Source of the DNA: Gammaproteobacteria bacterium
GTDB taxonomy: Bacteria > Pseudomonadota > Gammaproteobacteria > Eutrophobiales > Eutrophobiaceae
DNA length: 64,000 nt
Assembly (NCBI GenBank): GCA_965116495.1
Contig: OZ220696.1
Coordinates: 1,075,493 to 1,139,492, forward strand
Direction: 5' to 3'
Below, one piece after another: positions 1-45,840 of this stretch (positions within the stretch are counted from its first letter, which is position 1; every line of letters begins with the position of its first letter). The translations under genes and the position numbers were made by a program. Below the pieces are notes generated by a model. That model searched no databases. It had not been told where the DNA came from and saw only the letters and a program-made list of their open reading frames with translations.

Positions 1-316
1 GTGGTCAACGCCACGTTGTCGACACTCAGCCCCCAGCCGTATTCACGATTTAGCAGCTCAACCAGAGCGTTTAAAAATGCCTTGTTCCCCTGCGGCGGAT
101 CATAATCACCAACGACCCGGGCAAACTCGGCGGGCTTATCCAGCAGGCGCTGCATCCTGGCCCGGAAAAACGCCTGCACTTCGGCAATGTGCGCGGGATT
201 ACCACCGCCCAGCATCAATACCTCCTGCTCACCGGCCATTGCCTCCCCCAGGTCATCCATCAGCAGGATAATGCCGGAATGTTCTGAAAACCGTTGTGCA
301 AATTTTGAAAGTTTCA
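1..316 (-). CDS. Aminotransferase, N-terminal part (valine-pyruvate aminotransferase AvtA-like); continues beyond window start
   Basis: Reverse-strand translation from ATG at 316 reads MKLSKFAQRFSEHSGIILLMDDLGEAMAGEQEVLMLGGGNPAHI..., which resembles the AvtA N-terminus. No stop occurs before position 1. Confidence 0.55.
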
Positions 317-326
317 TAAATGTTAT

Positions 327-474
327 ATCCGCAGATTACGCAGATTAACGCAGATTAAAATCAATTCAATTTAAACCATTCGTACGTTCGAAAGATTAAA
401 TATTCATTCACATGAAAACTTGAATTACAGAATTAATACAAATTTATCTGCGTTAATCTGCGTAATCTGCGGAT
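327..474. repeat. CGCAGAT-iteron inverted-repeat miniature element, copy 1 (arms 327-355 and 446-474)
   Basis: ATCCGCAGATTACGCAGATTAACGCAGAT and its exact reverse complement flank a 90-bp AT-rich spacer between the glxK stop and the avtA-like start. Confidence 0.9.
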
Positions 475-481
475 AATTTTT

Positions 482-1630
482 TCATTTCAGTCCCTGCCCG
501 ATCAGTATGAGCCGGATGACCCGCTCTGCCGCATTGGCGATATATTCTCTTGAGTTCGCCAGCGCCTCGTCCAGGGGCATGTCTCTGGCAATAGCCGCTT
601 CCAGGCCGTTGATCCCGTGCTTGAACACCTCTCCGGCATCGTCCGCCAGTCCTCCGCCGATGGTGATCACGGGGACACCGTATTCACCGGCAAGCCGGGC
701 GATGCCCGCCGGTGTCTTGCCGAATGCCGTCTGGAAATCCACCCTGCCCTCACCGGTAAACACCAGGTCAGCCGAGCGCAGGTGAGTCTCGATGGAGGTT
801 GCCCTGCTGATGATTTCAATACCGCTGTCAAGTTCCGCCCCCGCAAATACATGCAGTCCGGCGCCCAGTCCGCCTGCCGCTCCGGCGCCCGGCATTGCAT
901 CCATGTCAATATCCATTTCCCGCTTAATCACACCCGCCAGATGTTTCAAATTGTCATCCAGCAACTTCACCATGTCCGCATCGGCGCCTTTCTGCGGCGC
1001 GAATACGCAGGCTGCACCGTTTTTCCCGGTCAGGGGGTTGTCAACGTCGCAGGCGACCAGGATCCGGGCTTTATCCAGTTTCGGGTGCCTGTCCTTCAGG
1101 TCCACGGACTCTATTTTATGCAGCATACCACCGGCGCCGTTCCGGTGGATAACGCTACCGTCCCCGGTGCGAAACACCACCCCCAGGGCCTGTGCCATGC
1201 CCACGCCGGCGTCGTTGGTGGCGGAACCACCAATTCCCAGGATAATTTTCTGCGCGCCCTTGTCAAGGGCGTGGCGAATCAACTCGCCTGTCCCGAACGA
1301 GGTCGTCCTTAACGGGTTCATGGTCTCGCCGCTGACTAGCGTTAACCCGGAAGCCGCCGCCATTTCGATGACCGCAGTGCTGTTATCCGCCAGCATCCCA
1401 TAGCCGGCCGTGACGTTTTGACCGGCGGGCCCTGTAACCTTACAACTGAGCAACTCCCCGCCGGCGGCATCAAGCAGCGACTGTACCGTTCCCTCCCCGC
1501 CATCAGCCATGGGTATCTTTATGCAGTCCGCGCCGGGCAGCACCCTTTCGATACCTGCTTCCATGGCCTCGGCAACCTCCATGGAGGTCAGGCTGCCCTT
1601 GAACGAGTCTGGTGCGAGAATTATCTTCAT
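482..1630 (-). CDS. glxK: Glycerate kinase (GlxK/GarK family)
   Basis: 382-aa ORF reading MKIILAPDSFKGSLTSMEVAEAM...GIGGSATNDAG, which is the typical glycerate kinase signature. Confidence 0.85.
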   Translation of the reverse strand: MKIILAPDSFKGSLTSMEVAEAMEAGIERVLPGADCIKIPMADGGEGTVQSLLDAAGGELLSCKVTGPAGQNVTAGYGMLADNSTAVIEMAAASGLTLVSGETMNPLRTTSFGTGELIRHALDKGAQKIILGIGGSATNDAGVGMAQALGVVFRTGDGSVIHRNGAGGMLHKIESVDLKDRHPKLDKARILVACDVDNPLTGKNGAACVFAPQKGADADMVKLLDDNLKHLAGVIKREMDIDMDAMPGAGAAGGLGAGLHVFAGAELDSGIEIISRATSIETHLRSADLVFTGEGRVDFQTAFGKTPAGIARLAGEYGVPVITIGGGLADDAGEVFKHGINGLEAAIARDMPLDEALANSREYIANAAERVIRLILIGQGLK

Positions 1631-1650
1631 ATTGCGATTTATGTATCAGA

Positions 1651-1727
1651 AAAAAGGGGACAGATTTATTTTTTCGGCAATAGCGCTGGTCGGTAAAATA
1701 TTTGAAAAATAAATCTGTCCCCTTTTT
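1651..1727. terminator. Hairpin with a long stem and flanking A/T runs, 3' of the DUF192 gene
   Basis: AAAAAGGGGACAGATTTATTTTT ... AAAAATAAATCTGTCCCCTTTTT forms a stem of about 18 bp with T-runs on both strands. Confidence 0.6.
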
Positions 1728-2183
1728 CTATCTATACACCTGGTAGGTTACGCGGTCACCAACGGTGATATCCCGTTTTTGTACCTGCCCGGCTTTCAGT
1801 TCCAGGACGGCTTTGACCCGGCCGTCCGACGGCATCACTTTAGTGGATTCCGGCTGTGCGTTCTCGACGATCTTGACGATGTATCCATCCGTATCGATAT
1901 AAATTATATCAAGCGGGATAAAGGTATTCTTCATCCAGATATTCAACCGTTGCGGTTTTTCGTTCAATAACAACATTCCCTGGTTTGCCGGCAAGCTTGA
2001 CCGGTACATCAGACCGATGCTTTTCAAACGCGGGTTATCGGCAACCTCAACCCGGTAATACAGGTTGTCATATTTCGTATTTATCGTCAGTGAACCTGAC
2101 TTGAAATGGGTCTGGCCGATACAGCTCGCGCTGATGAACAGCAGGAATAGAAGGCAACAGTCTCGACGACACTCTATTATCAT
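1728..2183 (-). CDS. DUF192 (COG1430) family protein
   Basis: 151 aa with an N-terminal hydrophobic segment and the TFIPLDIIYID motif typical of DUF192. Confidence 0.6.
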   Translation of the reverse strand: MIIECRRDCCLLFLLFISASCIGQTHFKSGSLTINTKYDNLYYRVEVADNPRLKSIGLMYRSSLPANQGMLLLNEKPQRLNIWMKNTFIPLDIIYIDTDGYIVKIVENAQPESTKVMPSDGRVKAVLELKAGQVQKRDITVGDRVTYQVYR

Positions 2184-2188
2184 TGATC

Positions 2189-2303
2189 AATTACGAATTA
2201 CAAATTACAAATTACGAATTAGGAATTACGAATTACGAATTACGAATTACGAATTGGGTTTTTAAGATTTTAATTCCTAATTCGTAATTTGTAATTCCTA
2301 ATT
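2189..2303. repeat. Heptamer tandem array (AATTACG/AATTAGG)n with downstream inverted array, locus 1
   Basis: About 10 direct 7-bp units at 2189-2257, a short loop, then inverted units at 2270-2303. Confidence 0.9.
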
Positions 2304-2765
2304 GATCTTCTTATTGTCTTCTTCACTCTTCGTTGCCCTGTTGTATCCGCTGTCCTGCCTGTTCAGGTTGACCGCGTGTTTCTGGCAATAAATATCGTAC
2401 ACTTTTTCCGGCGTAAGACCCGAGCATATCAGCGCGGAGACAAGAAAATGCAGTATATCGATTAATTCAACCCGGATATTCTGTATGTCGATATCATCCT
2501 TGCTCCACCACTTCCATAATAACTCTTCATCAAGCTCCAGTATCTCCTCGCGCATCGCCCTGGAATAGTTTGATAACCAGGTATTGGGCAGGTCATTGAC
2601 CTTGAGGCCGCCTTCATTGACCTGCGAATAGATGGTATCCATGGTCAGGGGATTCCCTGAAGTATCCTTGAGACCGTTTTTTTTGAAAACGTAATCGTTC
2701 AGTTCGGTCTGCATCCTGAAGATACGTTTGAGCATGTCGATCTCTGCAGATTTTTCAATATCCAT
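2298..2765 (-). CDS. All-alpha NTP pyrophosphohydrolase-like protein (dimeric dUTPase / MazG-like), start at internal ATG
   Basis: MDIEKSAEIDMLKRIFRMQTELNDYVFKK...EEILELDEELLWKWW...ELIDILHFLVSA. The upstream part of the listed 218-aa ORF is probably not translated. Confidence 0.4.
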   Translation of the reverse strand: MDIEKSAEIDMLKRIFRMQTELNDYVFKKNGLKDTSGNPLTMDTIYSQVNEGGLKVNDLPNTWLSNYSRAMREEILELDEELLWKWWSKDDIDIQNIRVELIDILHFLVSALICSGLTPEKVYDIYCQKHAVNLNRQDSGYNRATKSEEDNKKIN

Positions 2766-3190
2766 CGTTCGCGTCCCTATTTTTGACCGCCGGGAGTAAT
2801 TCGCCCCCCCGGGTAACAGGCCGAGGACAGATTTCAAATCTGTCCCCTTCTCTGCCCGAATTAGCGGGAGCCGTTGAATTGATTTGATTATTATTGCCAT
2901 TTTCGCTATTTTCGTACACACTATACAAGTAGTTTGCATATTTTCTCTGGTCAATTCAGTAATTCCGGTTGGTTTTTCCTGTATTACCTTGCTGAATTTG
3001 CAACACGTTAGGCGTCGGGAAACTCTTGTTTATTCAGAATTTCCCGCGAGGCAGGGATACGCCATCATGTGCTTTCGCAATGTGATTGGACATGTGGGAA
3101 AATCGAAAACCCGGGTTTTCGATCTTCATGTTCTGAAAATTCCGGGATGGAATTATTCAGGGATATTTTAATTTTTTCACGAGGTGATAT

Positions 3191-3394
3191 ATGGCAACTG
3201 GTACAGTTAAATGGTTTAATGAAACAAAAGGGTATGGATTTATCACGCCCGATGACGGAACGGCCGATGTATTCGTTCATTTTTCCGCTATACAGGCAGA
3301 TGGATTCAGAACTCTGAGCGAAGGCCAGACTGTTTCATTTGAGAAAAAGGCAGGAGCAAAAGGCGATCAAGCTGTTAACGTTCAAATGACTTAA
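3191..3394 (+). CDS. cspA: Cold-shock protein (CspA family)
   Basis: [35 protein letters not shown] is a canonical CSD sequence. Confidence 0.9.
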
Positions 3395-3399
3395 CCTGA

Positions 3400-3425
3400 C
3401 TGCCTGTTATCAGGCAGTTTTTATT
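3400..3425 (+). terminator. Rho-independent terminator after csp
   Basis: CTGCCTG-TTAT-CAGGCAG stem followed by a T-run. Confidence 0.75.
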
Positions 3426-3474
3426 ACACTACAACCATCCAGGCTTCTGGATTAGGGATAGAACCTTGAAAAGA

Positions 3475-3732
3475 ATGTTTGTTGGAAGTTTGCCTATGGA
3501 AACGACCGAAGCCGCCCTGACCGAACTATTTTCGGAATACGGAAAAGTCAGGGGCATTCAGCTTGCTACGGATGTTTTTTCCGGCAAATGCAAGGGGTTT
3601 GGTTTTGTCGATATGGAAGGACACGAAGCCAGGGCAGCGATTGAAGGACTGAACGGCAAGATGTACCAGGGCAAGTTCCTGCGCGTCAACTTTCAGGAAC
3701 CACGGGGAAAGAAAGGTAAAAGGCGCCGCTGA
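3475..3732 (+). CDS. RRM-type RNA-binding protein
   Basis: MFVGSLP... and KGFGFVDM match the RNP-2 and RNP-1 motifs. The C-terminus is basic and Gly-rich. Confidence 0.85.
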   Translation: MFVGSLPMETTEAALTELFSEYGKVRGIQLATDVFSGKCKGFGFVDMEGHEARAAIEGLNGKMYQGKFLRVNFQEPRGKKGKRRR

Positions 3733-3766
3733 CCAATATCGGTTGGTCACTCCCTTTACTTGATCC

Positions 3767-4423
3767 ATGAACATTGAGTTGATCAGTTTTGATCTGTGCC
3801 CGTTTGTGCAACGCTCGGTCATTACCTTGCTGGAAAAGGACATCCCCTTCAAGCGCACCAATATAGACCTGGCCAACAAGCCTGGCTGGTTTTTGCAGAT
3901 CTCGCCCCTGGGGAAAGTACCCGTACTGAAAATAGACGGCAACATCCTGTTTGAATCGGCAGTCATCAACGAATACCTGGATGAAGTTACCCCCCCGTCC
4001 ATGCACCCGGAAGACCCACTGCAAAAGGCCGTAAACCGGGCCTGGATTGAATTCGGATCGGAATTATCCAACCTGTCATTCAGGATGGTGATTACGGAGG
4101 ATAAGGACATTGTGGAACAATCCCTGCAGGCCCTGAGGGATAAATTCGAATTTCTGAACAAAAACCTCAACGCCGCCCCTTTCTTTAACGGCGCGGATTT
4201 CTCGCTGATCGACGCGGCCTATGCGCCTGTCTTTATCCGTATAGAATACCTGCTGAAGCAGGCGATCGCTGATGTGATCCCGCCGGGGTGCAGCCGGGTA
4301 CTGGCCTGGAGCAACGCCATCCTGGCGCGGCCGTCAGTCCGCGGCAGCATCATCGACCGCTTCACCGAACTGGCAACGCAAAGATTCAAGAAACGGGGCG
4401 GTATCCTGCTGCAAAACCTGTAA
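3767..4423 (+). CDS. Glutathione S-transferase family protein
   Basis: N-terminal thioredoxin-like CPF motif and GST-C-like remainder; 218 aa. Confidence 0.8.
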   Translation: MNIELISFDLCPFVQRSVITLLEKDIPFKRTNIDLANKPGWFLQISPLGKVPVLKIDGNILFESAVINEYLDEVTPPSMHPEDPLQKAVNRAWIEFGSELSNLSFRMVITEDKDIVEQSLQALRDKFEFLNKNLNAAPFFNGADFSLIDAAYAPVFIRIEYLLKQAIADVIPPGCSRVLAWSNAILARPSVRGSIIDRFTELATQRFKKRGGILLQNL

Positions 4424-4443
4424 ACCTGCAATTGATATTATTT

Positions 4444-4597
4444 ATCCGCAGATGACGCAGATAAACGCAGATTAAAAGACAATTCTTTATATGTGGATGG
4501 TGACCAGGTCGGATTTAATCAATAAAGTCTGAATTTGTCCGGGGCCTGTCAAGTTTTAATATCTTTTATCTGCGTTTATCTGCGTGAATCTGCGGAT
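4444..4597. repeat. CGCAGAT-iteron inverted-repeat element, copy 2 (arms 4444-4472 and 4568-4597)
   Basis: ATCCGCAGATGACGCAGATAAACGCAGAT and its reverse complement, sitting between convergent gst and cfa. Confidence 0.9.
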
Positions 4598-4612
4598 AAA
4601 TCAAGCGGTATT

Positions 4613-5842
4613 TTATGTATAGGCGTGCTTTTGCAGCACCAGGCGATAGCATTGCAGGCGGTTATGCAGGAAGCACTCAGCCGACCCCCACAAGTACAGC
4701 CGGAAGCGCCGGTAATCCGCCTCGCCGAACTTTTTGATGATGAATTCCCGGTTGGCATCGAAGCGTTTGGCCCAGTGGTCAAAAGTCAGGTAATAGCTGT
4801 ACCGATCATCCCATACTCCTTTCAAATCAAACGGCTTTGCGGCCAGGGATTTCAGAAAGTCGTGGAGCACGAAGAAGGAATGGTTGCCGGGATATATGTG
4901 TTGCGTAATAAAGGATGATATCTCATATTTCCGGGGTATGGCGCTGGCGTCGAGAAATACATAACCCCCCGGCTTGAGCAACCGGTCAAAACACTTCAGG
5001 ACCTCGGTATAGTTGGGCAAGTGCTCCATCACGCCCAGTATGGCGATGGCATCGAACTGTTTTTTGGTTTTGTATTCAAGGACGTCCATCAACCTGGTGG
5101 TGATAGGCAACTTCTGCACAGACGTCAGTTGCTGCATGAATTTAAGCGACTGCTCAGCAATGGTCAGGCCGGTCACCTTGATGCCTTTACGCGCCGCGAA
5201 TTCCGCAAACGAACCCCAACCGACTCCGACGTCCAGTACTTCACTGCCGGGGGTCAGCTTGCATCGTTCCAGGATAAAGTCCATTTTCCGGCGTATCGCT
5301 GCCGAGAGCGGTTCGTCAGGCGACTCGAATATGCCCTGGGTGTAACAGCGAAACTCCTCATCCAGGAACGACAGGTAAAATGAATGGTCCCGTTCGTAAT
5401 GGTGGCTGATTGCCGATTTGTTGACCGCGACCTGGCCCAGCAATACCGGCGCTATAAACCGCCAGAGCCACCTGAACAGGTGCCGGTCCTGACAATAATT
5501 GCGCAATTCATACATTTTGATGATATCGCCCTCTACATCGAACCAACCGTCGATATAGGCGTTCGCGATGACTCCTTCATCAAACGATACAATGGCGCGC
5601 AATCCCCTGGGGTCAGTCATCCTGAGCTTGAAACGCGGCGAACCCGTGCCTATCCTGTGTTCACTTCCGTCCGTGAGCACCGCGTCGAAACTGACCGGGC
5701 TTTTCCTGAACCGGTGGGAAATAAATCCCAGTAGCCGGGCTTCCCTGCGCTGCAGCGTTTTAATTTTTTTGCTTTCGACCGGACTCGCAGCTTCCGGAAC
5801 ACCTTGTTGCTCGTCGGCACGATCATTTAGAATAGATGCCAT
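4613..5842 (-). CDS. cfa: Cyclopropane-fatty-acyl-phospholipid synthase family methyltransferase
   Basis: 409 aa with the VLDVGVGWG SAM-binding motif and CFA synthase-like N-terminal region. Confidence 0.85.
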   Translation of the reverse strand: MASILNDRADEQQGVPEAASPVESKKIKTLQRREARLLGFISHRFRKSPVSFDAVLTDGSEHRIGTGSPRFKLRMTDPRGLRAIVSFDEGVIANAYIDGWFDVEGDIIKMYELRNYCQDRHLFRWLWRFIAPVLLGQVAVNKSAISHHYERDHSFYLSFLDEEFRCYTQGIFESPDEPLSAAIRRKMDFILERCKLTPGSEVLDVGVGWGSFAEFAARKGIKVTGLTIAEQSLKFMQQLTSVQKLPITTRLMDVLEYKTKKQFDAIAILGVMEHLPNYTEVLKCFDRLLKPGGYVFLDASAIPRKYEISSFITQHIYPGNHSFFVLHDFLKSLAAKPFDLKGVWDDRYSYYLTFDHWAKRFDANREFIIKKFGEADYRRFRLYLWGSAECFLHNRLQCYRLVLQKHAYT

Positions 5843-5949
5843 GATTCTTCATACCTCTGTTGCCCTCTGGTAAATTATCACTTATCCGGCAAACACGCAA
5901 AGGAATAAGACAACCGGATTAACCGGGATTATTGCGTTATCCTTCCTTC

Positions 5950-6681
5950 ATGAATGACCATCACAACAATATCAAACCGGATGAGGTCGAAAAATTCGAG
6001 CAACTGGCCCATGACTGGTGGAACATTGCCGGCCCGCTGCAAACCCTGCACGACATAAATCCGATCCGGTTGAATTATATCACCGACAATGCAAAGATCG
6101 ACGGCAGGCGCGTACTTGACGTGGGTTGCGGGGGCGGCATTCTGACAGAGGCACTGGCGCGTAGAGGCGCCAGTGTTCTGGGGCTTGACGCCAGCGAAGC
6201 CGTCATCCAGGCCGCCGGGCATCATGCACAGGAAAGCGGCCTGGAGATCGACTATATCACCGGGAGCCTGGAGGAATTCGCTACGGAAACCGCAAGCCGC
6301 TTTGACGTAATAACCTGTATGGAATTACTTGAACACGTGCCGGACCCGCAGGCGTTGTTGCGTTCCTGCGCCCTGTTATCAAGACCTGGCGGTCACTTGT
6401 TCCTGGCGACCATCAACCGCAATGTGAAATCCTACATCAGTGCCGTTCTCGGTGCCGAGCACCTGTTCGGCCTGCTGCCCAAAGGCACCCATGACTATGC
6501 CGGTTTCATCCGTCCTGCCGAACTGGACTGGTGGCTGCGCGAGGCAGGTTTCAAGGTGCTGGACATCAGGGGAATGCTCTACATCCCGGGGATCAGATAT
6601 TGCGCCCTGACAAACGACCCGGGCGTCAATTACCTGCTGCACGCACAACTTGTCGATCAGCGTCCGGGGTCCGACATCTAG
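5950..6681 (+). CDS. ubiG: Bifunctional 3-demethylubiquinone / 2-polyprenyl-6-hydroxyphenol methyltransferase UbiG
   Basis: MNDHHNNIKPDEVEKFEQLAHDWWN...LDVGCGGGIL matches UbiG. The ORF tool start is TTG 5932; ATG 5950 is preferred. Confidence 0.85.
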   Translation: MNDHHNNIKPDEVEKFEQLAHDWWNIAGPLQTLHDINPIRLNYITDNAKIDGRRVLDVGCGGGILTEALARRGASVLGLDASEAVIQAAGHHAQESGLEIDYITGSLEEFATETASRFDVITCMELLEHVPDPQALLRSCALLSRPGGHLFLATINRNVKSYISAVLGAEHLFGLLPKGTHDYAGFIRPAELDWWLREAGFKVLDIRGMLYIPGIRYCALTNDPGVNYLLHAQLVDQRPGSDI

Positions 6682-6723
6682 CAGGCACCTGCCCGACTAT
6701 TTTCCAAACCGGCTGACAATCGA

Positions 6724-7389
6724 ATGAACAGCAATGTCAGATGTATCCTGTTTGATCTCGACGGCACCCTGGTGGACACCGCGCCGGACCTCGCCAATGC
6801 GCTGAACCGGACGCTCGTCAATCACGGCAGGCAACCGTTAACGTTTGATGCAATCCGCCCCAGTGTCTCCCTGGGAGGTGTGGCAATGATAAAGCTGGGG
6901 TTCAACCTGGATGAAAGCGATCCGGATTTCACCCCCTTGCGTAATGAGTTCCTGGCAATATACCGGGACAACCTCTCTCACCACAGCCGCCTGTTCCCGG
7001 GCATGGAGCAGGTGCTGGCCGGACTGGATGAAATGAAGGCCTCCTGGGGTATCGTCACCAACAAACCCGGCTGGCTGACCAACCCGCTTATGGAGGCGCT
7101 GCACCTGGATACGCGTACTGACTGTATCGTCTCCGGCGACACGCTGGAACAGCGCAAACCGCACCCCGCGCAGTTGTTCCATGCCTGTGAACTACTGCAG
7201 CGCGTACCGGCAGAGACCTTGTACGTGGGTGATGCGCGGCGTGACATAGAAGCGGGGGTAAACGCCGGCATGACGACCCTGGTTGCCGCTTACGGGTACA
7301 TCGACACGAATGAAAATCCGGAAAACTGGGGCGCTGACGGGATGATAGACAGCCCGGAAGAAATCATGGCCTGGGTGAGTCCAGACTGA
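6724..7389 (+). CDS. HAD-family phosphatase (phosphoglycolate phosphatase Gph / MupP-like)
   Basis: ILFDLDGTLVDT HAD motif I; 221 aa; immediately downstream of ubiG, as in many gammaproteobacteria. Confidence 0.8.
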   Translation: MNSNVRCILFDLDGTLVDTAPDLANALNRTLVNHGRQPLTFDAIRPSVSLGGVAMIKLGFNLDESDPDFTPLRNEFLAIYRDNLSHHSRLFPGMEQVLAGLDEMKASWGIVTNKPGWLTNPLMEALHLDTRTDCIVSGDTLEQRKPHPAQLFHACELLQRVPAETLYVGDARRDIEAGVNAGMTTLVAAYGYIDTNENPENWGADGMIDSPEEIMAWVSPD

Positions 7390-7395
7390 CGGCAC

Positions 7396-8235
7396 ATGAA
7401 TCCGGAACAGTATTGCCGCAATAAAGCCGCCCCCGCCGGTTCAAACCTGTATTACGCTGCCTTGTATCATGATCCGCAAAGCAAGCGGATACTGCATGCC
7501 CTGTTTGCTTTTCACCAGGAACTCAGCGAGGTGGTCTATTCGTCATCAGACCCCGGCGCGGCGCGGGTCACCTTGTACTGGTGGTTTGAAGAGATAGGCA
7601 GACTGTTTTCCGGCGAGCCAAGGCACCCCGTTACCCAGGAGTTGTCTCAACCTGATAGCGCTGATTACCTGTCTCAAAAGGAAATGATGGGCTGTGTTGC
7701 GACTATGGCGCAGTTTCTTGATGCGCCTGAGAGCGGTCCTTACCAGGCCTGGCTGGCGCGCCACCACGCCGCCTCCGGTTATATCTGGAAAGCGGCAGGA
7801 CTGGCCTGTGGTTGCACAGACCCGGACAAGCTGGCCGTCCTGTCCAAGGCGGGTTGCTGTTACGGCGCATTTGAACTGCTGCACCACGTCAGACACTTCG
7901 CCAAACTCGGCCTTAATATACTCCCGACAGAACTATTGAGCAGTCGTAACATCAGCCTGGAAACACTCATCCGGCCGGAGTCCGGTGATAGCGGAACTGA
8001 GTTCTTCACAAAACTGTTTGAACTGGTGCAGAACGAGATAAAAACCTGCCTGACCAACCTGCAGGGAGAAGAAGCACACAAGCTCTTATTCTCCCATACC
8101 ATGCTGAAAATACTGGAGGCCCTGTGCAGGGAATACCAGTCCGCCCGCTCGCCTGTCACCCACACCCGCATTTCCTTAACCCCTGTCAGGAAACTCTGGA
8201 CAGCGTGGAGGACGGCCCGTAGATTACGCAGGTGA
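7396..8235 (+). CDS. Squalene/phytoene synthase family protein (both Asp-rich motifs degenerate)
   Basis: YYAALYHDPQSKRILHALFAFHQELSEVV...ARVTLYWWFEEI aligns with the isoprenoid synthase fold, but the DxxxD positions read HQELSE and ELLHHVRHF. Confidence 0.5.
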   Translation: MNPEQYCRNKAAPAGSNLYYAALYHDPQSKRILHALFAFHQELSEVVYSSSDPGAARVTLYWWFEEIGRLFSGEPRHPVTQELSQPDSADYLSQKEMMGCVATMAQFLDAPESGPYQAWLARHHAASGYIWKAAGLACGCTDPDKLAVLSKAGCCYGAFELLHHVRHFAKLGLNILPTELLSSRNISLETLIRPESGDSGTEFFTKLFELVQNEIKTCLTNLQGEEAHKLLFSHTMLKILEALCREYQSARSPVTHTRISLTPVRKLWTAWRTARRLRR

Positions 8236-8344
8236 ATGGCAGTTCCAGCCGCTTCCTTTACCAGTTTTTAGTAAGCATCAGCAAACCCGGGATCCAGCCG
8301 GTACAGATACCGGTGGCAACCATTGCATAAGTGAGGGTCTATCC

Positions 8345-8542
8345 ATGTGTCTGAAAATCACTACAGTCGGGAATTCAACCGGTGTCGTTTTGCCCAAAGA
8401 CCTGTTGGCGAGACTACGCGTCGGCATTAGCCGCTTGGACCAGGTTACATTTAAATCAACGGCATTTGGATTCAGTCCACGAACCGGGTGTGCCCCGGCA
8501 ACGCCGTCCGGCTTAATGCTGCCAGCGCAGCCTGACCCGTAA
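8345..8542 (+). CDS. Possible AbrB/MazE-family antitoxin-like small ORF (orphan, possibly decayed)
   Basis: The N-terminus ITTVGNSTGVVLPKDLLARLRV resembles the swapped-hairpin antitoxin motif, but the C-terminal half is not convincing and overlaps the 3' end of the ygfX-like gene. Confidence 0.25.
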   Translation: MCLKITTVGNSTGVVLPKDLLARLRVGISRLDQVTFKSTAFGFSPRTGCAPATPSGLMLPAQPDP

Positions 8543-8971
8543 CCGTCTCAGCGTTTGCTTGTCCAGGTTGTCATGGGTCAGTACGCAAGGATGGGTCCGG
8601 CCGGCCGTGTCCTTGAAGTGCAGTACCACTATCTGCGGGTGGACCAACGCGCCGGGCAGCAACCTGAGGTTGACGGCTTCGCAGTTGTCACTGAATAACT
8701 GCCATTGGTCGTGCTTGTCCAGCTTGAAGCAGATGTCCTCCGGAGAGAGAAATCGCGTTATGTAAATGCCATAATTGACCAGGACGCAGGTTCCGGCAAA
8801 TACCATGGCAATGGCCGGAATATCTGCCACGAACAGGCAGACAATCGCCCCTATATGCACCAGGGTATTAAAAATACCCACCCGTACAGAGCGCCGGTAA
8901 TGAATGAAAATCGGTAGTTCAAACGGGGCTTCCAGGCCGGTTACATCGGGCATCCCTTTCTTGCAATCCAT
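8513..8971 (-). CDS. YgfX/CptA-like inner-membrane protein (DUF1434)
   Basis: Two predicted TM helices, then a W..L and ...TLRRLRVRLRWQ C-terminal pattern similar to E. coli YgfX. The real start may be the internal MPDVTG at 8953. Confidence 0.45.
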   Translation of the reverse strand: MDCKKGMPDVTGLEAPFELPIFIHYRRSVRVGIFNTLVHIGAIVCLFVADIPAIAMVFAGTCVLVNYGIYITRFLSPEDICFKLDKHDQWQLFSDNCEAVNLRLLPGALVHPQIVVLHFKDTAGRTHPCVLTHDNLDKQTLRRLRVRLRWQH

Positions 8972-9074
8972 TATGTTTATTTACATACTGTATTTTTTCC
9001 TGTCGGAAAACACGCACGCGTACACGGTGATCCTGGACAAAACAGGATATTGAAGATTTTGATAACATAAGTCA

Positions 9075-9236
9075 ATGGCCAGACAAGAAACAGAGAAGCC
9101 GCAAAAACCGCCCCAGCCAGCCAGGCCGACAGAAAACAGCAAGGAGAACGAGTCCGGGGAAGTCGGCGGCCCTAAGGGACCGGAACCCACCCGTTACGGA
9201 GACTGGGAAAGAAAAGGCCGTTGTGTGGATTTTTGA
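9075..9236 (+). CDS. DUF1674 / SDHAF4-like small protein (53 aa; not in the ORF table)
   Basis: Manual translation gives [53 protein letters not shown]. The C-terminal TRYGDWE+KGR+C+DF matches the DUF1674 signature. Confidence 0.6.
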
Positions 9237-9279
9237 CTTTGCGTCCTGCATCTGAGACTCCGGCCCGGGATGGTGCAGG

Positions 9280-10245
9280 TTGATAGCGGGCCGGCTGGTT
9301 TTCGCGCTGTTGCTGATAGCGGCGCCCGCTGCAGTTCTCGCCGCTGACCGGACCCTGATCCTCGCCGCGTGGAATATCGAACACCTGGCGGCTGAAGACG
9401 GCAAGGGCTGCCGGCCGCGGGATGCTGCCGAATACGAGGCGATCGGGCAATACCTGGACCGCGCTAATGCGGACATTATTGCATTCCAGGAGGTAGAGAA
9501 CCTGCGCGCGGCAGAGAGGGTGTTCCCTGCTTCGAAGTATGATGTTCATATCTCACAAAGACCGTCCCGGAAATTTCCGGAATGCTACGACATCACCAAC
9601 GACAGGTTGATGCAGCGCACGGGGTTCGCCGTTCGCAAGGACATTGCCAGGCGCCTGGGTCTGCGGGCGGTTCGACAACCCGATGTACGCGAACTGCAGG
9701 GCACCCATGATTCCGGGCGCCGGGGCGTCCATCTTGTCCTGGAGCAGGTTGATGAAGGTAGCGCCGGGTCAATGCCGGCCGGGCCCCCATTGCACCTGCT
9801 TTCCATACACCTGAAATCAAGATGTACGCACCAGGCCATAACGGGCAAAAAAACCAGGCCGGATTGCGTCGTACTGCATGGGCAGGTTGACGCATTATCC
9901 GCCTGGATCAATGCCCGTGCCCACCTGCAACAGGATTTTATTATCGCCGGCGATTTCAACAGGCAGCTTGACCAGTTAAGCGACGAAGTGTGGGTACGGC
10001 TGGAATCCGGCGGCAAGAGCGGACCATACGTTGACCTGGAGAAAGCCCTTCAAGGGGTTGAACATCCACAGCCTTATAACCGGAAATACCCCTACGCCAT
10101 CGATCACATCATATACAACCAGGCCGTGGACAGCCTGTTGCTTGAGACAGAGGCGTTTTTTGACGTCGGGGCGGGCAGCTATTCGGACCACCTGCCTGTT
10201 TTTGCCACCTTTGATTTATCGGGCCCCGACGGTGGTATGAACTGA
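9280..10245 (+). CDS. Endonuclease/exonuclease/phosphatase (EEP) family protein, secreted
   Basis: Signal-like N-terminus, then LILAAWNIEHL...IIAFQEV... and a C-terminal SDHLPV, which fits the EEP fold. Start is TTG. Confidence 0.75.
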   Translation: MIAGRLVFALLLIAAPAAVLAADRTLILAAWNIEHLAAEDGKGCRPRDAAEYEAIGQYLDRANADIIAFQEVENLRAAERVFPASKYDVHISQRPSRKFPECYDITNDRLMQRTGFAVRKDIARRLGLRAVRQPDVRELQGTHDSGRRGVHLVLEQVDEGSAGSMPAGPPLHLLSIHLKSRCTHQAITGKKTRPDCVVLHGQVDALSAWINARAHLQQDFIIAGDFNRQLDQLSDEVWVRLESGGKSGPYVDLEKALQGVEHPQPYNRKYPYAIDHIIYNQAVDSLLLETEAFFDVGAGSYSDHLPVFATFDLSGPDGGMN

Positions 10246-10257
10246 AGCAGGCTATTC

Positions 10258-11143: not shown

Positions 11144-11145
11144 TA

Positions 11146-12938
11146 ATGAGCGCAGCCTACCAGTTCATTCAGCATGAATACGATATTGTCGTGGTAGGCG
11201 CCGGTGGCGCCGGGTTGCGCGCCACCTTCGGCATGGCCGAGAAAGAGCTGAAAACGGCTTGCATCACCAAGGTCTTTCCCACCCGCAGCCACACCGTTGC
11301 GGCCCAGGGCGGCATGAGCGCGGCCCTGGGCACATGGGTGAAGACGACTGGCGCTGGCACATGTACGATACCGTCAAGGGGTCGGACTGGCTGGGTGACC
11401 AGGATGCCATTGAATATATGTGCAAGGAGGCTGCTGCTGCCGTGATCGAACTGGAACATTACGGCGTCCCCTTCTCGCGTACCACGGACGGCAAGATTTA
11501 CCAGCGTCCTTTCGGCGGCATGACGACCAACTTCGGTGAAGGCACGGCGCAGCGTACCTGCGCCGCCGCCGACCGCACCGGTCACGCCATCCTGCATACC
11601 CTGTACCAGCAGTCCCTGAAGCATAACGCCGAGTTTTTCGTCGAATATTTTGCCATCGACCTGATCATGGACGATGAAGGCGTGTGTCGGGGTGTCCTGG
11701 CCTGGGACCTGGAGAAGGGCGACCTGCACTGCTTTCGCGCCCACACCGTGGTCCTGGCTACGGGGGGGTATGGACGCGCCTATTTCTCCTGTACCTCCGC
11801 CCATACCTGCACCGGTGACGGCAATGCCATGATACTGCGCGCCGGCCTGCCTTTGCAGGACATGGAATTCGTCCAATTCCATCCTACCGGCATTTACGGC
11901 GCCGGGGTGCTGATTACCGAAGGAGTGCGCGGCGAGGGTGGCTACCTGACCAATTCGGAGGGTGAAAGATTCATGGAGCGTTACGCCCCCAATGCCAAAG
12001 ACCTGGCCTCCCGGGACGTGGTCAGCCGCTCCATGACCATGGAAATCCGGGAGGGGCGCGGGATTGGCCCGGAACGGGACCACCTCCACCTGCACCTGGA
12101 ACACCTGGGACCGGATGTGATCAACGAACGCCTGCCCGGGATCGCGGAGTCGGCCCACATTTTCGCCGGAGTGGACGTTTCCAGGGCACCCATTCCCGTC
12201 CTGCCTACGGTGCATTACAACATGGGTGGGATCCCGACCAACTACCACGGACAGATGGTCACGTTGAAGGACGGCAATCCCGACAGTATCGCCCCCGGCC
12301 TCATGGCCATCGGGGAAGCGGCCTGCGTATCGGTCCACGGCGCCAATCGTCTCGGCTCAAACAGCCTGCTGGACCTCATCGTGTTCGGCCGCGCCGCGGC
12401 CCTGTGTGCCGCCCGCGAAGTCAAACCCGGCGCTCCCCACAAACCCCTGGGCGCCGCGACGACAGAGCAGTCCCTGGCGCGCTTCGACCGCCTTCGTTAT
12501 GCCGGCGGCGGTATGCGTACTGCCGAGATCAGGAACAACATGCAGCGAACCATGCAGACCAACGCCGCGGTCTTTCGCAGCGGTGAGATCCTGGCGGAAG
12601 GTGTCGAAAAAATGGATGCTATTTACCATTCGTTTAACAATGTCAGCACGGCTGATCGTTCCCTGGTCTGGAATACCGACCTGGTCGAGACCCTGGAACT
12701 GGAAAACCTGTTACAGTGCGCGCAGGTAAGCATCCGCTCCGCCGCAAACCGCAGGGAGAGCCGCGGCGCCCATGCCCGGGAGGATTACCCGGAGCGGGAT
12801 GATGATAATTGGATGAAACATACCTTATCGTGGCTGGACCCCGATTCGGGCAGGGTGGATTTCGACTACCGGCCGGTACACCTGTATACCCTGACGGATG
12901 AGGTGGACGCAATCCCACCGAAAAAGCGGGTATATTAA
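11146..12938 (+). CDS. sdhA: Succinate dehydrogenase flavoprotein subunit, with an apparent -1 frameshift near 11331-11335
   Basis: The N-terminus [26 protein letters not shown]...[13 protein letters not shown] is in one frame. The remainder, [19 protein letters not shown]... to the end, is in the +2 frame (ORF 11259..12938). Confidence 0.85.
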
Positions 12939-12951
12939 TCCGCAGGGATAT

Positions 12952-13021
12952 ATCCGCAGATTACCCAGATATACGCAGATGAAAAAAATGAATCAAAAAA
13001 TAATCTGCGTTAATCTGCACC
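12952..13021. repeat. CGCAGAT-iteron inverted-repeat element, copy 3 (short spacer), between sdhA and sdhB
   Basis: ATCCGCAGATTACCCAGATATACGCAGAT ... ATCTGCGTTAATCTGCACCATCTGCGGAT. An extra partial ATCCGCAGG abuts the sdhA stop codon. Confidence 0.9.
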
Positions 13022-13075
13022 ATCTGCGGATAAAATAATATTTGTGTAAACTGAGGGTAAGCAAAGAGACTTGGT

Positions 13076-18547: not shown

Positions 18548-18696
18548 ATCCGCAGATGGCGCGGATTTACGCAGATTATATGTGAATTTTACCGGTAACA
18601 ATCGAAATCCGGCAGGCAATCTGACATCCGTTCACAATTCGAGTAAACTCGTTTTATTAAAACCGTTACGCAATATCATCTGCGCTAATCTGCGGA
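18548..18696. repeat. CGCAGAT-iteron inverted-repeat element, copy 4 (right arm shortened to two iterons), in the divergent ffh / ypjD region
   Basis: ATCCGCAGATGGCGCGGATTTACGCAGAT ... ATCTGCGCTAATCTGCGGA. Confidence 0.85.
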
Positions 18697-22882: not shown

Positions 22883-23569
22883 ATGGATAAAACGAAAATC
22901 ACATTGCTGACAATTGTCATCGTATTGGTGGTGCTGTTTTTTGTTTTCGACCTGGGCCAGTATTTCAACCTGGAATACCTGAAGGAGAAGCAGGCCGTCA
23001 TGGATGCCTATTATGAGCGGGAACCATTAACAACAGCCGTCTCCTTCTTTTTCCTGTATGTCATCATTACCGGCCTGTCCCTGCCGGGGGCAGCCATCCT
23101 TACCTTGGCCGCCGGCGCCATTTTCGGTGTGCTCTGGGGAACCATAGTCGTGTCCTTTGCTTCCACCATAGGGGCAACGCTCGCATTCCTGGTCTCACGC
23201 TACCTGTTCCGGGAAGCCATACAAGGACGTTTTGCCGACAAGTTAACCGCCATCAACAGGGGGATTGACGAGGAAGGCGCATTTTACCTGTTCACCCTGC
23301 GCCTGGTGCCCATATTCCCGTTTTTCATCATCAACCTGGTGATGGGCCTGACTACCATCAAGGCGTTGACCTTCTTTCTCGTCAGCCAGGTCGGGATGCT
23401 GGCCGGGACTGTCGTTTACGTGAACGCCGGTACCCAGATTGCGAAAATTGAACAACTCAAGGATATCGCATCACCGGAGTTGATATTGTCTTTTGTGCTG
23501 CTGGGCATCTTCCCGCTGTTGGCGAAAAAAACAGTCGATTACCTGAAAAAACGTAAAATCCGCAGATGA
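22883..23569 (+). CDS. TVP38/TMEM64 (DedA-like) family membrane protein
   Basis: 228 aa with a characteristic ...LRLVPIFPFFIINLVMGLT core; next to a pyridine nucleotide-disulfide oxidoreductase, which is a common pairing. Confidence 0.8.
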   Translation: MDKTKITLLTIVIVLVVLFFVFDLGQYFNLEYLKEKQAVMDAYYEREPLTTAVSFFFLYVIITGLSLPGAAILTLAAGAIFGVLWGTIVVSFASTIGATLAFLVSRYLFREAIQGRFADKLTAINRGIDEEGAFYLFTLRLVPIFPFFIINLVMGLTTIKALTFFLVSQVGMLAGTVVYVNAGTQIAKIEQLKDIASPELILSFVLLGIFPLLAKKTVDYLKKRKIRR

Positions 23570-23654
23570 CGCACTCCTGCCTAAAGCATGCAGAGGCATG
23601 GATTAACGCAGATTTTTTTGGAATGATTTCGAATTGTATTGGCCATTCCTGCAC

Positions 23655-23686
23655 CTCTTCGTCATTCCCGCGCAGGCGGGAATCCA
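23655..23686. repeat. REP-type palindrome CGTCATTCCCGCGCAGGCGGGAATCCAG
   Basis: Direct reading of the sequence. A solo CGCAGAT-arm remnant (GATTAACGCAGAT) lies at 23593-23606. Confidence 0.85.
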
Positions 23687-23738
23687 GTAACCAAACAGTC
23701 GCCTTTCAGGCGACACTTTATCACCAAGATCTGCGCGC

Positions 23739-33260: not shown

Positions 33261-33426
33261 ATCTGCAAATTACGCAGATTATCGCAGATAAAAATACAAA
33301 TTTATTATTGAAGTTGTCTGGTTCAGATATGGTTAATTTAAACCTGATTTTATCCGGAAGCTGAAAAACAGTTAATCAGTAAATTTTTTTATAATTTAAT
33401 CTGCGATAATCTGCCTAATCTGCGGA
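33261..33426. repeat. CGCAGAT-iteron inverted-repeat element, copy 6, in the divergent yejF / yejA region
   Basis: ATCTGCAAATTACGCAGATTATCGCAGAT ... ATCTGCGATAATCTGCCTAATCTGCGGA. Confidence 0.85.
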
Positions 33427-33432
33427 CAAATA

Positions 33433-38003: not shown

Positions 38004-38010
38004 TTGACCC

Positions 38011-43381: not shown

Positions 43382-43534
43382 ATCCGCAGATGACGCAGAT
43401 TACCGCAGATAAAAATATAAAAGATCAGGAGACTTACAAAATTCTTGGGGCGGCAATGGCTGTACATAGAGAACTGGGACATGGTTTTCTTGAGACTTGT
43501 TTTTAATCTGCGTTAATCTGCGTCATCTGCGGAT
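43382..43534. repeat. CGCAGAT-iteron inverted-repeat element, copy 7, carrying a 28-codon GxxExxY-family gene fragment (43420-43506) in its spacer
   Basis: The arms are perfect 29-bp inverted repeats. The spacer translates to KDQETYKILGAAMAVHRELGHGFLETCF* and ends exactly at the right arm. Confidence 0.8.
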
Positions 43535-43612
43535 AAATCATCTGCAGATGTACAATTACACTGATGCATGGCAAAATAATCCCATGTGTATCAGGATAAA
43601 CAAGGGGTAAGT

Positions 43613-45692: not shown

Positions 45693-45840
45693 ATCCGCAG
45701 ATGACGCAGATTAACGCAGATGGTATACAATTAGTTCTGTTTACTCTGAACACTCCTTGTGTTTCGTCATGTTCTGTTTAAGCGCATGTATTAAAGTTTT
45801 GATATCTTTTCATCTGCGTTAATCTGCGTCATCTGCGGAT
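45693..45840. repeat. CGCAGAT-iteron inverted-repeat element, copy 8 (perfect arms), between convergent genes
   Basis: ATCCGCAGATGACGCAGATTAACGCAGAT ... ATCTGCGTTAATCTGCGTCATCTGCGGAT. Confidence 0.9.

What the first reader, a model, noticed from the sequence alone, without database searches (positions are those of the whole stretch)
327..474. Family of miniature inverted-repeat elements whose 29-bp arms are three helically phased CGCAGAT iterons (seven full copies plus one solo arm in 46 kb)
Copies lie at 327-474, 4444-4597, 12952-13021, 18548-18696, 33261-33426, 43382-43534 and 45693-45840, with a solo arm at 23593-23606. All share arms of the form ATCCGCAGAT-NNN-GCAGAT-NNN-CGCAGAT as near-perfect inverted repeats around a 20-120 bp AT-rich spacer. 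The iterons are spaced about 10 bp apart, so all three lie on one helical face, the geometry expected for a cooperative DNA-binding protein such as a transposase or regulator. Every copy is intergenic, sitting at convergent gene ends, divergent promoters, or inside operons. The density is about one per 6-7 kb, far above chance, and the arms match neither the IS1182 element nor the REP families here. The elements stop at 46 kb; the right third of the window has none.
Basis: seen in the sequence. Interest (0 to 1): 0.6.

Follow-up and report, generated by a model that had tools for sequence, protein, structure and literature searches.

The report
Hairpin repeats derived from GxxExxY nuclease cassettes
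The repeats are real: they are gene-less miniature copies of a 420-bp selfish-looking cassette, found in at least 18 phyla, that elsewhere carries a small nuclease gene of unknown function between the same two inverted arms.

Summary
The 29-nt arm (ATCCGCAGAT-N3-GCAGAT-N3-CGCAGAT, three heptamers 9 and 10 bp apart) occurs 12 times in the window against 0 expected. It forms seven inverted pairs plus one degenerate copy, all intergenic. Only the arms are shared; the interiors are unrelated.

The same arms occur in at least 120 stretches of genomes from about 18 phyla, and in 35 viral contigs. About one locus in ten has arms enclosing a 419-425-bp unit that is one ORF: a GxxExxY protein (TIGR04256, PF13366, PD-(D/E)XK nuclease fold). 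Its first and last codons are encoded by the arms. In a protein-selected sample, 79 of 80 such genes have these arms nearby.

Window copy 43382-43534 still encodes the first 36 codons of that gene. Relatives at 77-96% nucleotide identity (varying by segment) show copies present or absent at the same sites. Dispersed copies share interiors. No target-site duplication is seen. The two arms of one element co-vary unit by unit, so the stem matters.

The copies are best read as non-autonomous derivatives of a nuclease-encoding palindromic cassette, analogous to REP/RAYT or MITEs but with a different enzyme. Whether the nuclease mobilises them is inferred, not shown. I found no published description.

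The parts
327..474 (.). Miniature element 1. Arms 327-355 and 446-474 are perfect inverted repeats with a 90-bp unrelated interior. It lies between the glycerate kinase stop (482, minus strand) and the start of an aminotransferase-like ORF that runs off the window start.
   Evidence: RNA fold -56 kcal/mol, z -11.8
4444..4597 (.). Miniature element 2. Arms are 4444-4472 and 4568-4597; the right arm has a 1-nt insertion. It lies between the convergent ends of a GST-like gene and a cyclopropane-fatty-acid-synthase-like gene. It is absent at this site in relatives L121 and L122 and present in L091. In L123/L124 the site holds a CACAGAG-type element instead.
12938..13031 (.). Miniature element 3, a short hairpin. 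Arms are 12952-12980 and 13003-13031 with a 22-nt loop, plus an extra outer unit ATCCGCAGG at 12938-12946. It lies between sdhA and sdhB. It is present in all relatives with at least 87% SdhB identity and absent at 81%.
   Evidence: fold -31.9 kcal/mol, z -8.8
18548..18696 (.). Miniature element 4. The left arm is 18548-18576; the right arm (18678-18696) is truncated to two units. It lies between the divergent starts of ffh and a CcsB-like gene. The orthologous copy in L121 is complete.
23557..23735 (.). Degenerate element 5. The left arm ATCCGCAGATGACGCA / ATTAACGCAGAT is split by a 28-bp insertion (23557-23613). The interior holds a GTCATTCCCGCGCAGGCGGGAATCC repeat. A right remnant AGATCTGCG lies at 23727-23735.
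33261..33427 (.). Miniature element 6. Arms are 33261-33289 and 33399-33427, both partly decayed. It lies between the divergent starts of an ABC ATPase gene and a substrate-binding protein gene. Its ortholog in L008 (4623-4789) keeps consensus arms.
43382..43534 (+). Miniature element 7, an internal-deletion remnant of a GxxExxY cassette. Arms are 43382-43410 and 43506-43534. Bases 43390-43500 read MTQITADKNIKDQETYKILGAAMAVHRELGHGFLE, followed by the C-terminal ..LVFNLR region out of frame. The element is absent in relatives L160/L161, where the site holds a single ATCCGCAGAT.
   Evidence: tblastn E 1.6e-10; custom HMM E 1.5e-14; PF13366 E 1.7e-4, 22.4 bits against a cut-off of 22; 88% over 49 nt to the L080 gene; site comparison
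43540..43549 (.). A solitary 10-mer ATCTGCAGAT, 5 nt outside the right arm of element 7. Its position matches the single 10-mer found at the empty site of relatives.
45693..45840 (.). Miniature element 8. Arms are 45693-45721 and 45812-45840. It lies between the convergent ends of a dicarboxylate/amino-acid symporter gene and a PpiD-like gene. It is absent in L160, L161 and L163. Its interior is 75% identical over 87 bp to a non-orthologous copy in a related genome (L008 2839-2986).
   Evidence: fold -70.8 kcal/mol, z -11.1

Best explanation
The window carries eight gene-less, hairpin-forming derivatives of a very small palindromic cassette. The complete form of that cassette is 419-425 bp long and consists of two 29-nt inverted arms around a single ORF.

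The ORF encodes a GxxExxY protein, a roughly 130-residue PD-(D/E)XK-fold nuclease with its D...E-x-K residues intact. The ORF starts inside the left arm and runs through the right arm. Its stop codon usually lies in the flanking DNA.

Shown:
- The arm-ORF association.
- The descent of at least one window copy from the ORF-bearing form.
- Presence and absence at orthologous sites.
- Dispersed paralogous copies.
- Decay of fixed copies.
- Lack of target-site duplication.
- Co-variation of the two arms.

Inferred: the cassette is a selfish element that spreads with the help of its own nuclease. The nuclease would recognise the phased heptamers and/or the stem formed by the two arms in single-stranded nucleic acid. 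It would cut at or near the terminal quasi-palindrome ATCYGCRGAT, and host repair or recombination would complete the copying, because a PD-(D/E)XK enzyme only hydrolyses DNA. Gene-less copies would arise by internal deletion and would persist, or be moved in trans, wherever the stem is tolerated. That restricts them to intergenic DNA, including inside operons.

In this clade the copies look mostly old and decaying, and no autonomous copy was seen in the roughly 300 kb sampled.
For: The heptamers are almost invariant across 221 arms.
2. Arms enclose a TIGR04256 / PF13366 ORF. In 80 loci chosen by protein similarity alone, 79 have such arms within 1.5 kb and 42 show a strict left-right pair around the gene, most often 419-425 bp long.
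3. The arms encode the protein termini: (NPQ)MTQ(M/I)xAD at the N-terminus and NLRxSAxSAD at the C-terminus.
4. Window copy 43382-43534 is a deletion remnant of the gene. In L085, miniature copies derive from the adjacent full gene.
5. Presence and absence among relatives at 77-96% nucleotide identity.
6. Dispersed paralogues share interiors. L091 and L164 come from one genome, lie 180 kb apart and are 83% identical over 135 bp. Window 45693 matches L008 2839.
7. Fixed copies decay: 6 changes in 58 arm positions against 4 in 110 interior positions. The cross-phylum invariance therefore reflects active lineages, not host function.
8. The arms of one element co-vary unit by unit (CGCAGAT to CACAGAT in both arms). 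There are 23 concordant units against 8.0 +/- 2.3 expected. The unit-order shuffle reached the observed value in 23 of 5000 trials.
10. Two empty sites in relatives carry one copy of the terminal 10-mer exactly where other genomes carry an element.
Against: - No biochemical or genetic evidence links the nuclease to movement of the arms.
- A hydrolytic nuclease alone cannot perform strand transfer.
- No ORF-bearing copy was found in the window or in about 300 kb of its relatives.
- Most miniature interiors show no trace of the gene, so descent by deletion is proven only for a few copies.
- The extra outer 10-mer is not a general feature: it accompanies 24 of 320 arms, and most of those cases are neighbouring arms.
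- Exact insertion boundaries could not be fixed, because the nearest relatives differ by 4-23% in sequence.
- Distant GxxExxY proteins lack arm-encoded termini, so the family is not tied to these arms as a whole.
- Many source genomes are metagenome bins, so some phylum assignments (for example the single archaeal bin) may be wrong.
Confidence: 0.7

Rival explanations
1. The hairpins are the primary repeat. They spread by some other route and serve as the landing site. The GxxExxY gene is then a homing-endonuclease-type invader that cuts the empty palindrome and is copied into its loop, using the arms as homology.
For: - Gene-less hairpins far outnumber ORF-bearing units, and many are only 58-82 bp long in total.
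- No target-site duplication is seen.
- The enzyme is a nuclease only.
Against: - The ORF uses the arms for its start and its C-terminus in a conserved way.
- Proven cases run from gene to miniature copy, by deletion.
- Homology of 29 bp is short for recombinational repair.
- This reading does not explain how the hairpins themselves reach new sites.
Confidence: 0.15
2. The arms matter mainly at the RNA level. The 29-bp stem would make the element a self-contained unit processed by RNase III, like intervening sequences in rRNA. That lets it sit harmlessly, or usefully as a processing or stability element, inside host transcripts. Under this reading the window copies are exapted mRNA hairpins.
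For: - The predicted stems are very stable: -32 to -71 kcal/mol, z -9 to -12.
- Half of the window copies lie inside co-directional gene pairs, including sdhA-sdhB, and that copy has been kept since before relatives at 87% SdhB identity diverged.
- The arms co-vary, which needs pairing.
- One-sided changes lean towards G.U in the sense RNA (9 against 4), though this is not significant.
Against: - Fixed copies lose arm consensus and complementarity at least as fast as their interiors change.
- Copies are polymorphic between close relatives.
- Copies also lie between convergent and divergent genes, where no common transcript is expected.
- The heptamer sequence is invariant across phyla, which pairing alone does not require.
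- No Rfam family matches.
Confidence: 0.15
3. The GxxExxY gene is only cargo, for example a toxin or a defence nuclease. The arms would then be the ends of a non-autonomous element moved by an unlinked host or IS-encoded recombinase.
For: - No autonomous copy was found in this clade.
- Sister arm families with other heptamers (CACGGAA, CGCGAAA, CACAGAG and others) share the same architecture.
- Some distant GxxExxY genes lack these arms.
Against: - 79 of 80 close GxxExxY genes carry the arms.
- The 420-bp unit has no room for anything else.
- No recurrent second gene was noticed next to the elements, but neighbouring genes in the fetched loci were not systematically annotated.
- There is no match to PADLOC defence models or to PHROGs.
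- There is no duplication typical of DDE enzymes.
Confidence: 0.1
4. The triple heptamers are operators or iterons for a host regulator or replication protein, conserved for gene control.
For: - The units are phased 9-10 bp apart on one helical face.
- Two copies lie between divergent promoters.
Against: - The same arms occur in about 18 phyla next to unrelated genes.
- They occur at convergent gene ends.
- They are present or absent between close relatives.
- They decay in fixed copies.
- They enclose an ORF elsewhere.
Confidence: 0.02

Closest known systems
REP / REPIN sequences with their RAYT genes
   Same: - Short palindromic repeats at high density in intergenic DNA, including inside operons.
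- A small nuclease-type gene is itself flanked by the same repeats in inverted orientation.
- No target-site duplication.
- Hairpin pairing matters.
- The gene is rare relative to the repeats.
   Different: - RAYT is an HUH Y1 transposase related to IS200/IS605, whereas this protein has a PD-(D/E)XK fold.
- REPs are lineage-specific and carry a GTAG motif. These arms are three phased heptamers that stay almost invariant across phyla.
- Here the arms overlap the coding sequence.
Bacterial MITEs such as Correia elements, ERIC/IRU and RUP
   Same: - Elements of 70-170 bp with terminal inverted repeats.
- Intergenic and often co-transcribed with host genes.
- Insertion polymorphism between relatives.
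- Some arise by internal deletion of a longer element.
   Different: - Those elements have conserved interiors, and most have target duplications (TA for Correia).
- Their parents, where known, encode DDE transposases.
- Here the interiors are unrelated, no duplication is seen, and the parent encodes only a 130-residue nuclease.
Homing endonuclease genes of the PD-(D/E)XK class (I-Ssp6803I, I-Bth0305I)
   Same: A small nuclease-only selfish gene that depends on host repair, with a patchy cross-phylum distribution.
   Different: - Those genes sit in introns or phage genes and have no inverted arms and no gene-less derivatives.
- Cleavage of an empty allele has not been tested here.
ORF-bearing intervening sequences of 23S rRNA (Leptospira, Coxiella; four-helix-bundle protein family TIGR02436), recalled from memory
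   Same: A small ORF bounded by inverted repeats that pair into a long stem. These elements are scattered across phyla and their ORFs form large paralogous families.
   Different: - Those lie in rRNA helices and are removed by RNase III, and their ORF belongs to a different protein family.
- The window copies lie between protein genes, and the window holds no rRNA.
- I did not test this link.

Membership tests
MITE (miniature inverted-repeat transposable element) | Short, non-coding, bounded by terminal inverted repeats, in several dispersed copies | tested here: met
   Eight copies of 80-167 bp with 29-nt arms; 12 arms found against 0 expected
MITE (miniature inverted-repeat transposable element) | Shares its inverted repeats with a longer ORF-bearing element | tested here: met
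   Units of 419-425 bp with the same arms enclose a GxxExxY ORF in other genomes. One window copy is a remnant of that ORF. None was found in this clade's roughly 300 kb.
MITE (miniature inverted-repeat transposable element) | Target-site duplication flanking each copy | tested here: not met
   No direct repeats flank the window copies or the 42 full-length elements
MITE (miniature inverted-repeat transposable element) | Parent encodes a recognised transposase (DDE, HUH, serine or tyrosine) | tested here: not met
   The only ORF is PF13366 / TIGR04256 with a PD-(D/E)XK fold
MITE (miniature inverted-repeat transposable element) | Insertion polymorphism at orthologous sites | tested here: met
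   Polymorphic at the GST/CMAS, permease/fabI, symporter/ppiD and SBP/permease sites. The sdhA-sdhB site is empty at 81% SdhB identity.
REP/REPIN-RAYT system | Associated gene is a RAYT (HUH Y1 transposase) | tested here: not met
   NCBIfam and Pfam give only GxxExxY / PDDEXK_3
REP/REPIN-RAYT system | Repeat carries the conserved GTAG tetranucleotide at its 5' end | tested here: not met
   Arms begin ATCCGCAGAT in 221 arms
GxxExxY protein family (TIGR04256 / Pfam PF13366 PDDEXK_3), for the enclosed ORF | Score above the curated cut-off of the family model | tested here: met
   TIGR04256 139 bits against a cut-off of 35. PF13366 135 bits against 22 for P0121. The window remnant scores 22.4 against 22.
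GxxExxY protein family (TIGR04256 / Pfam PF13366 PDDEXK_3), for the enclosed ORF | PD-(D/E)XK core fold with catalytic D...E-x-K | tested here: met
Operator or iteron array of a host regulator | Conserved at orthologous promoter positions and restricted to one regulon or lineage | tested here: not met
   Found at convergent gene ends and inside operons, polymorphic between relatives, and present in about 18 phyla
Intrinsic transcription terminator | GC-rich stem followed directly by a U run | tested here: not met
   The scan covered 1-20000 only (four of the eight copies). It flags only part of one arm, at 456-474. The tails of the other copies are A-rich or mixed.
rRNA intervening sequence | Inserted in a 23S rRNA helix and excised by RNase III | not tested
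   The window has no rRNA. I did not check whether arm-bearing cassettes occur in rRNA genes elsewhere.
Homing endonuclease gene | The nuclease cleaves the ORF-less allele, and the gene is copied in by repair | not testable with these tools
   Only indirect evidence: a nuclease fold, no duplication, and a single terminal 10-mer at two empty sites

The most novel reading that the evidence does not exclude
The 419-425-bp unit would be a previously undescribed class of autonomous mobile element, smaller than any known insertion sequence. It would consist of nothing but two phased-heptamer arms and one PD-(D/E)XK nuclease gene whose reading frame spans the element from arm to arm. It would move through a hairpin intermediate without target duplication, have crossed at least 18 phyla, and seed REP-like hairpins throughout genomes. 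Sister families with other heptamers (CACAGAG, CACGGAA, CGCGAAA and others) would then form a large superfamily.
Probability: 0.35. Interest if true: 0.85.

Novelty: new variant of a known kind. Interest (0 to 1): 0.7.

Why it matters
GxxExxY / PF13366 is a very large protein family: 25,445 clusters at 50% identity reach E <= 0.001. The 2012 survey of the PD-(D/E)XK superfamily lists its function as 'Unknown' (PMC3424549). I found no paper in the held library that gives the arm sequence or links the family to repeats.

This link gives the family a concrete, testable role, and it gives an origin for a class of intergenic palindromes. If the nuclease mobilises the arms, this would be the smallest self-contained mobile unit known in bacteria. 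It would also be a second REP/RAYT-like partnership, evolved independently and built on a different enzyme fold.

There are practical consequences:
- The arm-encoded protein termini and the run-on into flanking DNA explain odd low-complexity tails in annotated proteins.
- The hairpins are likely sites of assembly breaks and of mRNA processing inside operons such as sdhCDAB.

Tried and rejected
- **Rfam.** At gathering thresholds it finds only three tRNAs.
- **Exact-protein look-up.** Two window proteins were not on record. I reached relatives through homologues instead.
- **PDB sequence search.** No relative of the GxxExxY protein was found.
- **PADLOC and PHROGs.** No match.
- **Spacer complementarity.** At the variable spacer positions it is only modestly above shuffled pairs: 3.78 against 3.09 of 6. 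I therefore tested unit-level covariation, which is clear.
- **An extra terminal 10-mer as a general insertion signature.** Rejected as general: 24 of 320 arms, mostly neighbouring arms.
- **Target-site duplications of 2-10 bp.** None were seen. In a few loci the inverted repeat simply extends further outward.
- **Interior-sequence families within the window.** None were found.
- **Operator reading.** Rejected (see the rival explanations).
- **Terminator reading.** Rejected.
- **G.U against A.C asymmetry as a test of RNA folding.** 9 against 4, which is too few to decide.
- **Not done.** I also did not test the recalled link to 23S rRNA intervening sequences.

Full report
**Observation**

The stretch 327-474 reads ATCCGCAGATTACGCAGATTAACGCAGAT, then 90 unrelated AT-rich bases, then the exact reverse complement of the arm. 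The arm core, allowing three mismatches, is found 12 times in 64 kb against none in 100 shuffles. The bare heptamer is found 43 times against 9.6 +/- 2.8. A generic scan for any 6-mer present three times at 8-11-bp spacing returns only this family.

Units start 9 and then 10 bp apart, counted from the outer end. The 'solo arm' is a degenerate eighth copy whose left arm is split by a 28-bp insertion. An alignment of the seven copies shows that only the arms are conserved, and no two interiors in the window match by BLAST.

All copies are intergenic. Four lie between co-directional genes (upstream of an aminotransferase-like ORF, sdhA-sdhB, a VTT-domain gene and an oxidoreductase gene, a permease and FabI). 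Two lie between convergent ends and two between divergent starts. As RNA the elements fold into 29-bp stems of -32 to -71 kcal/mol, with z from -9 to -12. Rfam has nothing there.

**Where else the arms occur**

The hits span:
- Verrucomicrobiota, Planctomycetota, Nitrospirota, Desulfobacterota, Lentisphaerota and Acidobacteriota;
- Alpha-, Beta- and Gammaproteobacteria;
- Chloroflexota, Cyanobacteria, Armatimonadota, Cloacimonadota, Latescibacterota, Hydrogenedentota, Nitrospinota and Bacteroidota;
- one archaeal bin.

Thirty-five viral contigs also carry the arm. Across 221 arms the heptamers are almost invariant, and only five spacer positions vary. Most pairs are 58-180 bp long in total. 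A distinct size class sits at 419-422 bp.

**The parent**

Every 419-422-bp unit is one ORF of about 130-137 residues. It scores 139 bits on TIGR04256 'GxxExxY protein' (cut-off 35) and 135 bits on Pfam PF13366 PDDEXK_3.

The arms are part of the reading frame. CCGCAGATGACGCAGATTAACGCAGAT reads (P)QMTQINAD at the N-terminus. AATCTGCGnnnATCTGCGnnATCTGCGGAT reads NLRxSAxSAD at the C-terminus. The frame usually runs on into flanking DNA until a stop happens to occur, which explains the variable tails seen in the alignment.

The family is very large. More than 8000 close relatives were found, all PF13366. At 50% identity, 25,445 clusters reach E <= 0.001. More distant members lack the arm-encoded termini.

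To remove the bias of selecting loci by their arms, I fetched 80 metagenome loci chosen by protein similarity only.
- 79 have CGCAGAT/CACAGAT-type arms within 1.5 kb.
- 42 have a strict left-right pair around the gene.
- The most common lengths are 419-425 bp.

**Link to the window copies**

Copy 43382-43534 still reads MTQITADKNIKDQETYKILGAAMAVHRELGHGFLE, followed out of frame by the ..LVFNLR end of the gene. It is an internal deletion of about 265 bp. The support is:
- tblastn E 1.6e-10;
- family HMM E 1.5e-14;
- PF13366 at 22.4 bits, just above the cut-off of 22;
- 88% identity over 49 nt to a deltaproteobacterial full copy.

In L085, two miniature copies next to a full unit derive from that unit. 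The other window interiors show no trace of the gene. No full gene was found in the window or in about 300 kb from its relatives.

**Mobility**

Relatives were reached through SdhB and symporter homologues. They are 77-96% identical to the window in nucleotide sequence, and the identity changes by segment in a mosaic pattern.

- **sdhA-sdhB copy.** It is present in all relatives with at least 87% SdhB identity. It is absent at 81%, where only a 28-bp spacer separates the genes.
- **GST/CMAS copy.** It is absent in L121 and L122 and present in L091. In L123/L124 the site holds an element with CACAGAG-type arms.
- **Copies 43382 and 45693.** Both are absent in L160 and L161; 45693 is also absent in L163.
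- **SBP/permease site.** A relative (L164) carries a copy where L160 and L163 have overlapping genes. The window has a heptamer tandem-repeat hairpin at that site.
- **Dispersed copies with shared interiors.** L091 and L164, from one genome and 180 kb apart, are 83% identical over 135 bp. Window 45693 and a non-orthologous copy in L008 are 75% identical over 87 bp.
- **Decay of fixed copies.** The window copy at 33261 differs from its ortholog at 6 of 58 arm positions but only 4 of 110 interior positions. The sdhA-sdhB arms erode in L122-L124.

The cross-phylum constancy of the arms is therefore not due to host selection on resident copies.

**Mechanistic clues**

- No target-site duplication is visible at window copies or at 42 full units.
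- The outermost 10 bases, ATCYGCRGAT, are a quasi-palindrome. The two ends of an element are therefore both inverted repeats and imperfect direct repeats.
- Two empty sites in relatives carry one such 10-mer exactly at the position of the element: ATCCGCAGAT, ATCCACAGAT or ATCTGCGGAT before GTACAAT, and ATCCGCAGATGA at the SBP/permease junction. This fits either a preferred target or a deletion or recombination footprint. The extra 10-mer is not general, and the boundaries cannot be fixed at this divergence.
- The two arms of one element co-vary unit by unit. Where a heptamer is CACAGAT or CGCCGAT in one arm, the same unit of the other arm tends to carry the same change.
  - There are 23 concordant units against 8.0 +/- 2.3 expected, reached by 0 of 5000 shuffles.
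  - In elements with mixed unit types, shuffling unit order reaches the observed value in 23 of 5000 trials.
  - Identical protomers binding each unit would not require this, but a base-paired stem would.
- Sister arms with the same three-unit, 9-10-bp layout but other heptamers occur in the fetched loci: CACAGAG, CACGGAA, CACGAAG, CGCGAAA, CACGGAT and others.

**Interpretation**

The best reading is that the window copies are non-autonomous, mostly old derivatives of a nuclease-encoding palindromic cassette. That cassette behaves like a selfish element and has moved between phyla.

The association, the descent of one copy, the site polymorphism, the decay and the covariation are shown. It is only inferred that the GxxExxY nuclease is the mobilising enzyme, that it acts on the stem or the heptamers, and that host repair completes the event.

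The rival readings differ as follows:
- The gene may be a homing-type invader of pre-existing hairpins.
- The arms may serve mainly as RNA stems.
- The gene may be cargo moved by another enzyme.
- The arms may be host operators. The distribution, the polymorphism and the decay contradict this reading.

**Comparison with known systems**

The system works most like REP/RAYT and like MITEs. It fails defining tests of both:
- there is no HUH transposase and no GTAG motif;
- there is no target duplication and no recognised transposase;
- the interiors are not conserved.

It shares the nuclease-only logic of PD-(D/E)XK homing endonucleases but has arms and gene-less derivatives. A resemblance to ORF-bearing 23S rRNA intervening sequences is recalled from memory and was not tested.

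**Novelty**

The 2012 survey of the superfamily lists PF13366 as 'Unknown', with multiple transfers (PMC3424549). Full-text searches for the family names and for the arm sequence found nothing relevant.

I rate this a new variant of a known kind. There is a substantial chance that the 420-bp unit is a new class of autonomous element.

Noticed in passing
window 2189-2255; 28893-28938 with inverted 29024-29056; 41317-41474 with inverted 41507-41539: Tandem arrays of the heptamer GAATTAG/GAATTAC, up to 22.6 copies, are paired with inverted arrays of the complementary heptamer and form long intergenic hairpins. The site at 41315-41545 is where one relative carries a CGCAGAT element and others have overlapping genes.
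   Followed up: partly
window 23662-23688, 36262-36288, 17050-17170, 19568-19624: A second repeat family is built on GTCATTCC(C/G)GCG...GC(C/G)GGAATCC palindromes, similar to ATTCCC-N8-GGGAAT repeats. It is partly tandem (23-bp and 20-bp periods). The same motif sits inside CGCAGAT elements of other genomes (L065, L090, L091, L164).
   Followed up: no
L123 400-640; L008 30-60; L153, L134, L155, L083, L141 and others: Sister arm families have the same layout (three heptamers 9-10 bp apart, in inverted pairs) but different heptamers: CACAGAG, CACGGAA(G), CACGAAG, CGCGAAA(G), CACGGAT, CTAAAGTG. A CACAGAG-type element occupies, in L123/L124, the very site where the window has a CGCAGAT element.
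   Followed up: partly
L162 9030-9070 and 11210-11370; L163 8790-9130: Relatives carry further hairpin repeat families (GGGGACGGACTTGAAGTCCGTCCCC and GGGGTCAGAGTAAAAATAC...GTATTTTTACTCTGACCCC) at the same intergenic sites. These sites seem to be hot spots for several kinds of palindromic element.
   Followed up: no
window 30832-31533: An AT-rich ion-channel gene (Pfam Ion_trans) lies between two convergent genes. The close relative L008 has only a CGCAGAT hairpin element at that place, so the gene is probably an insertion or a replacement.
   Followed up: no
window 34000-50000 against L160-L163: Nucleotide identity to each relative jumps by segment. For example, the PpiD gene is 77% identical to L160 but 96% to L162, while neighbouring genes show the opposite ranking. 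This indicates recombination between lineages.
   Followed up: no
L019 3521-3995; L085 5325-5688; L041 1887-1981; L109 7893-7963; L174: Arms and whole miniature elements can be tandemly amplified. Examples are arms repeated every 33-45 bp and 100%-identical miniature copies 220 bp apart.
   Followed up: no
GxxExxY proteins P0121-P0240 and loci L168-L247: Annotated GxxExxY proteins have variable C-terminal tails after ..SAD, because the frame runs out of the element into flanking DNA. Some called starts lie upstream of the arm (xNPQ...). These tails are annotation by-products of the arms.
   Followed up: partly
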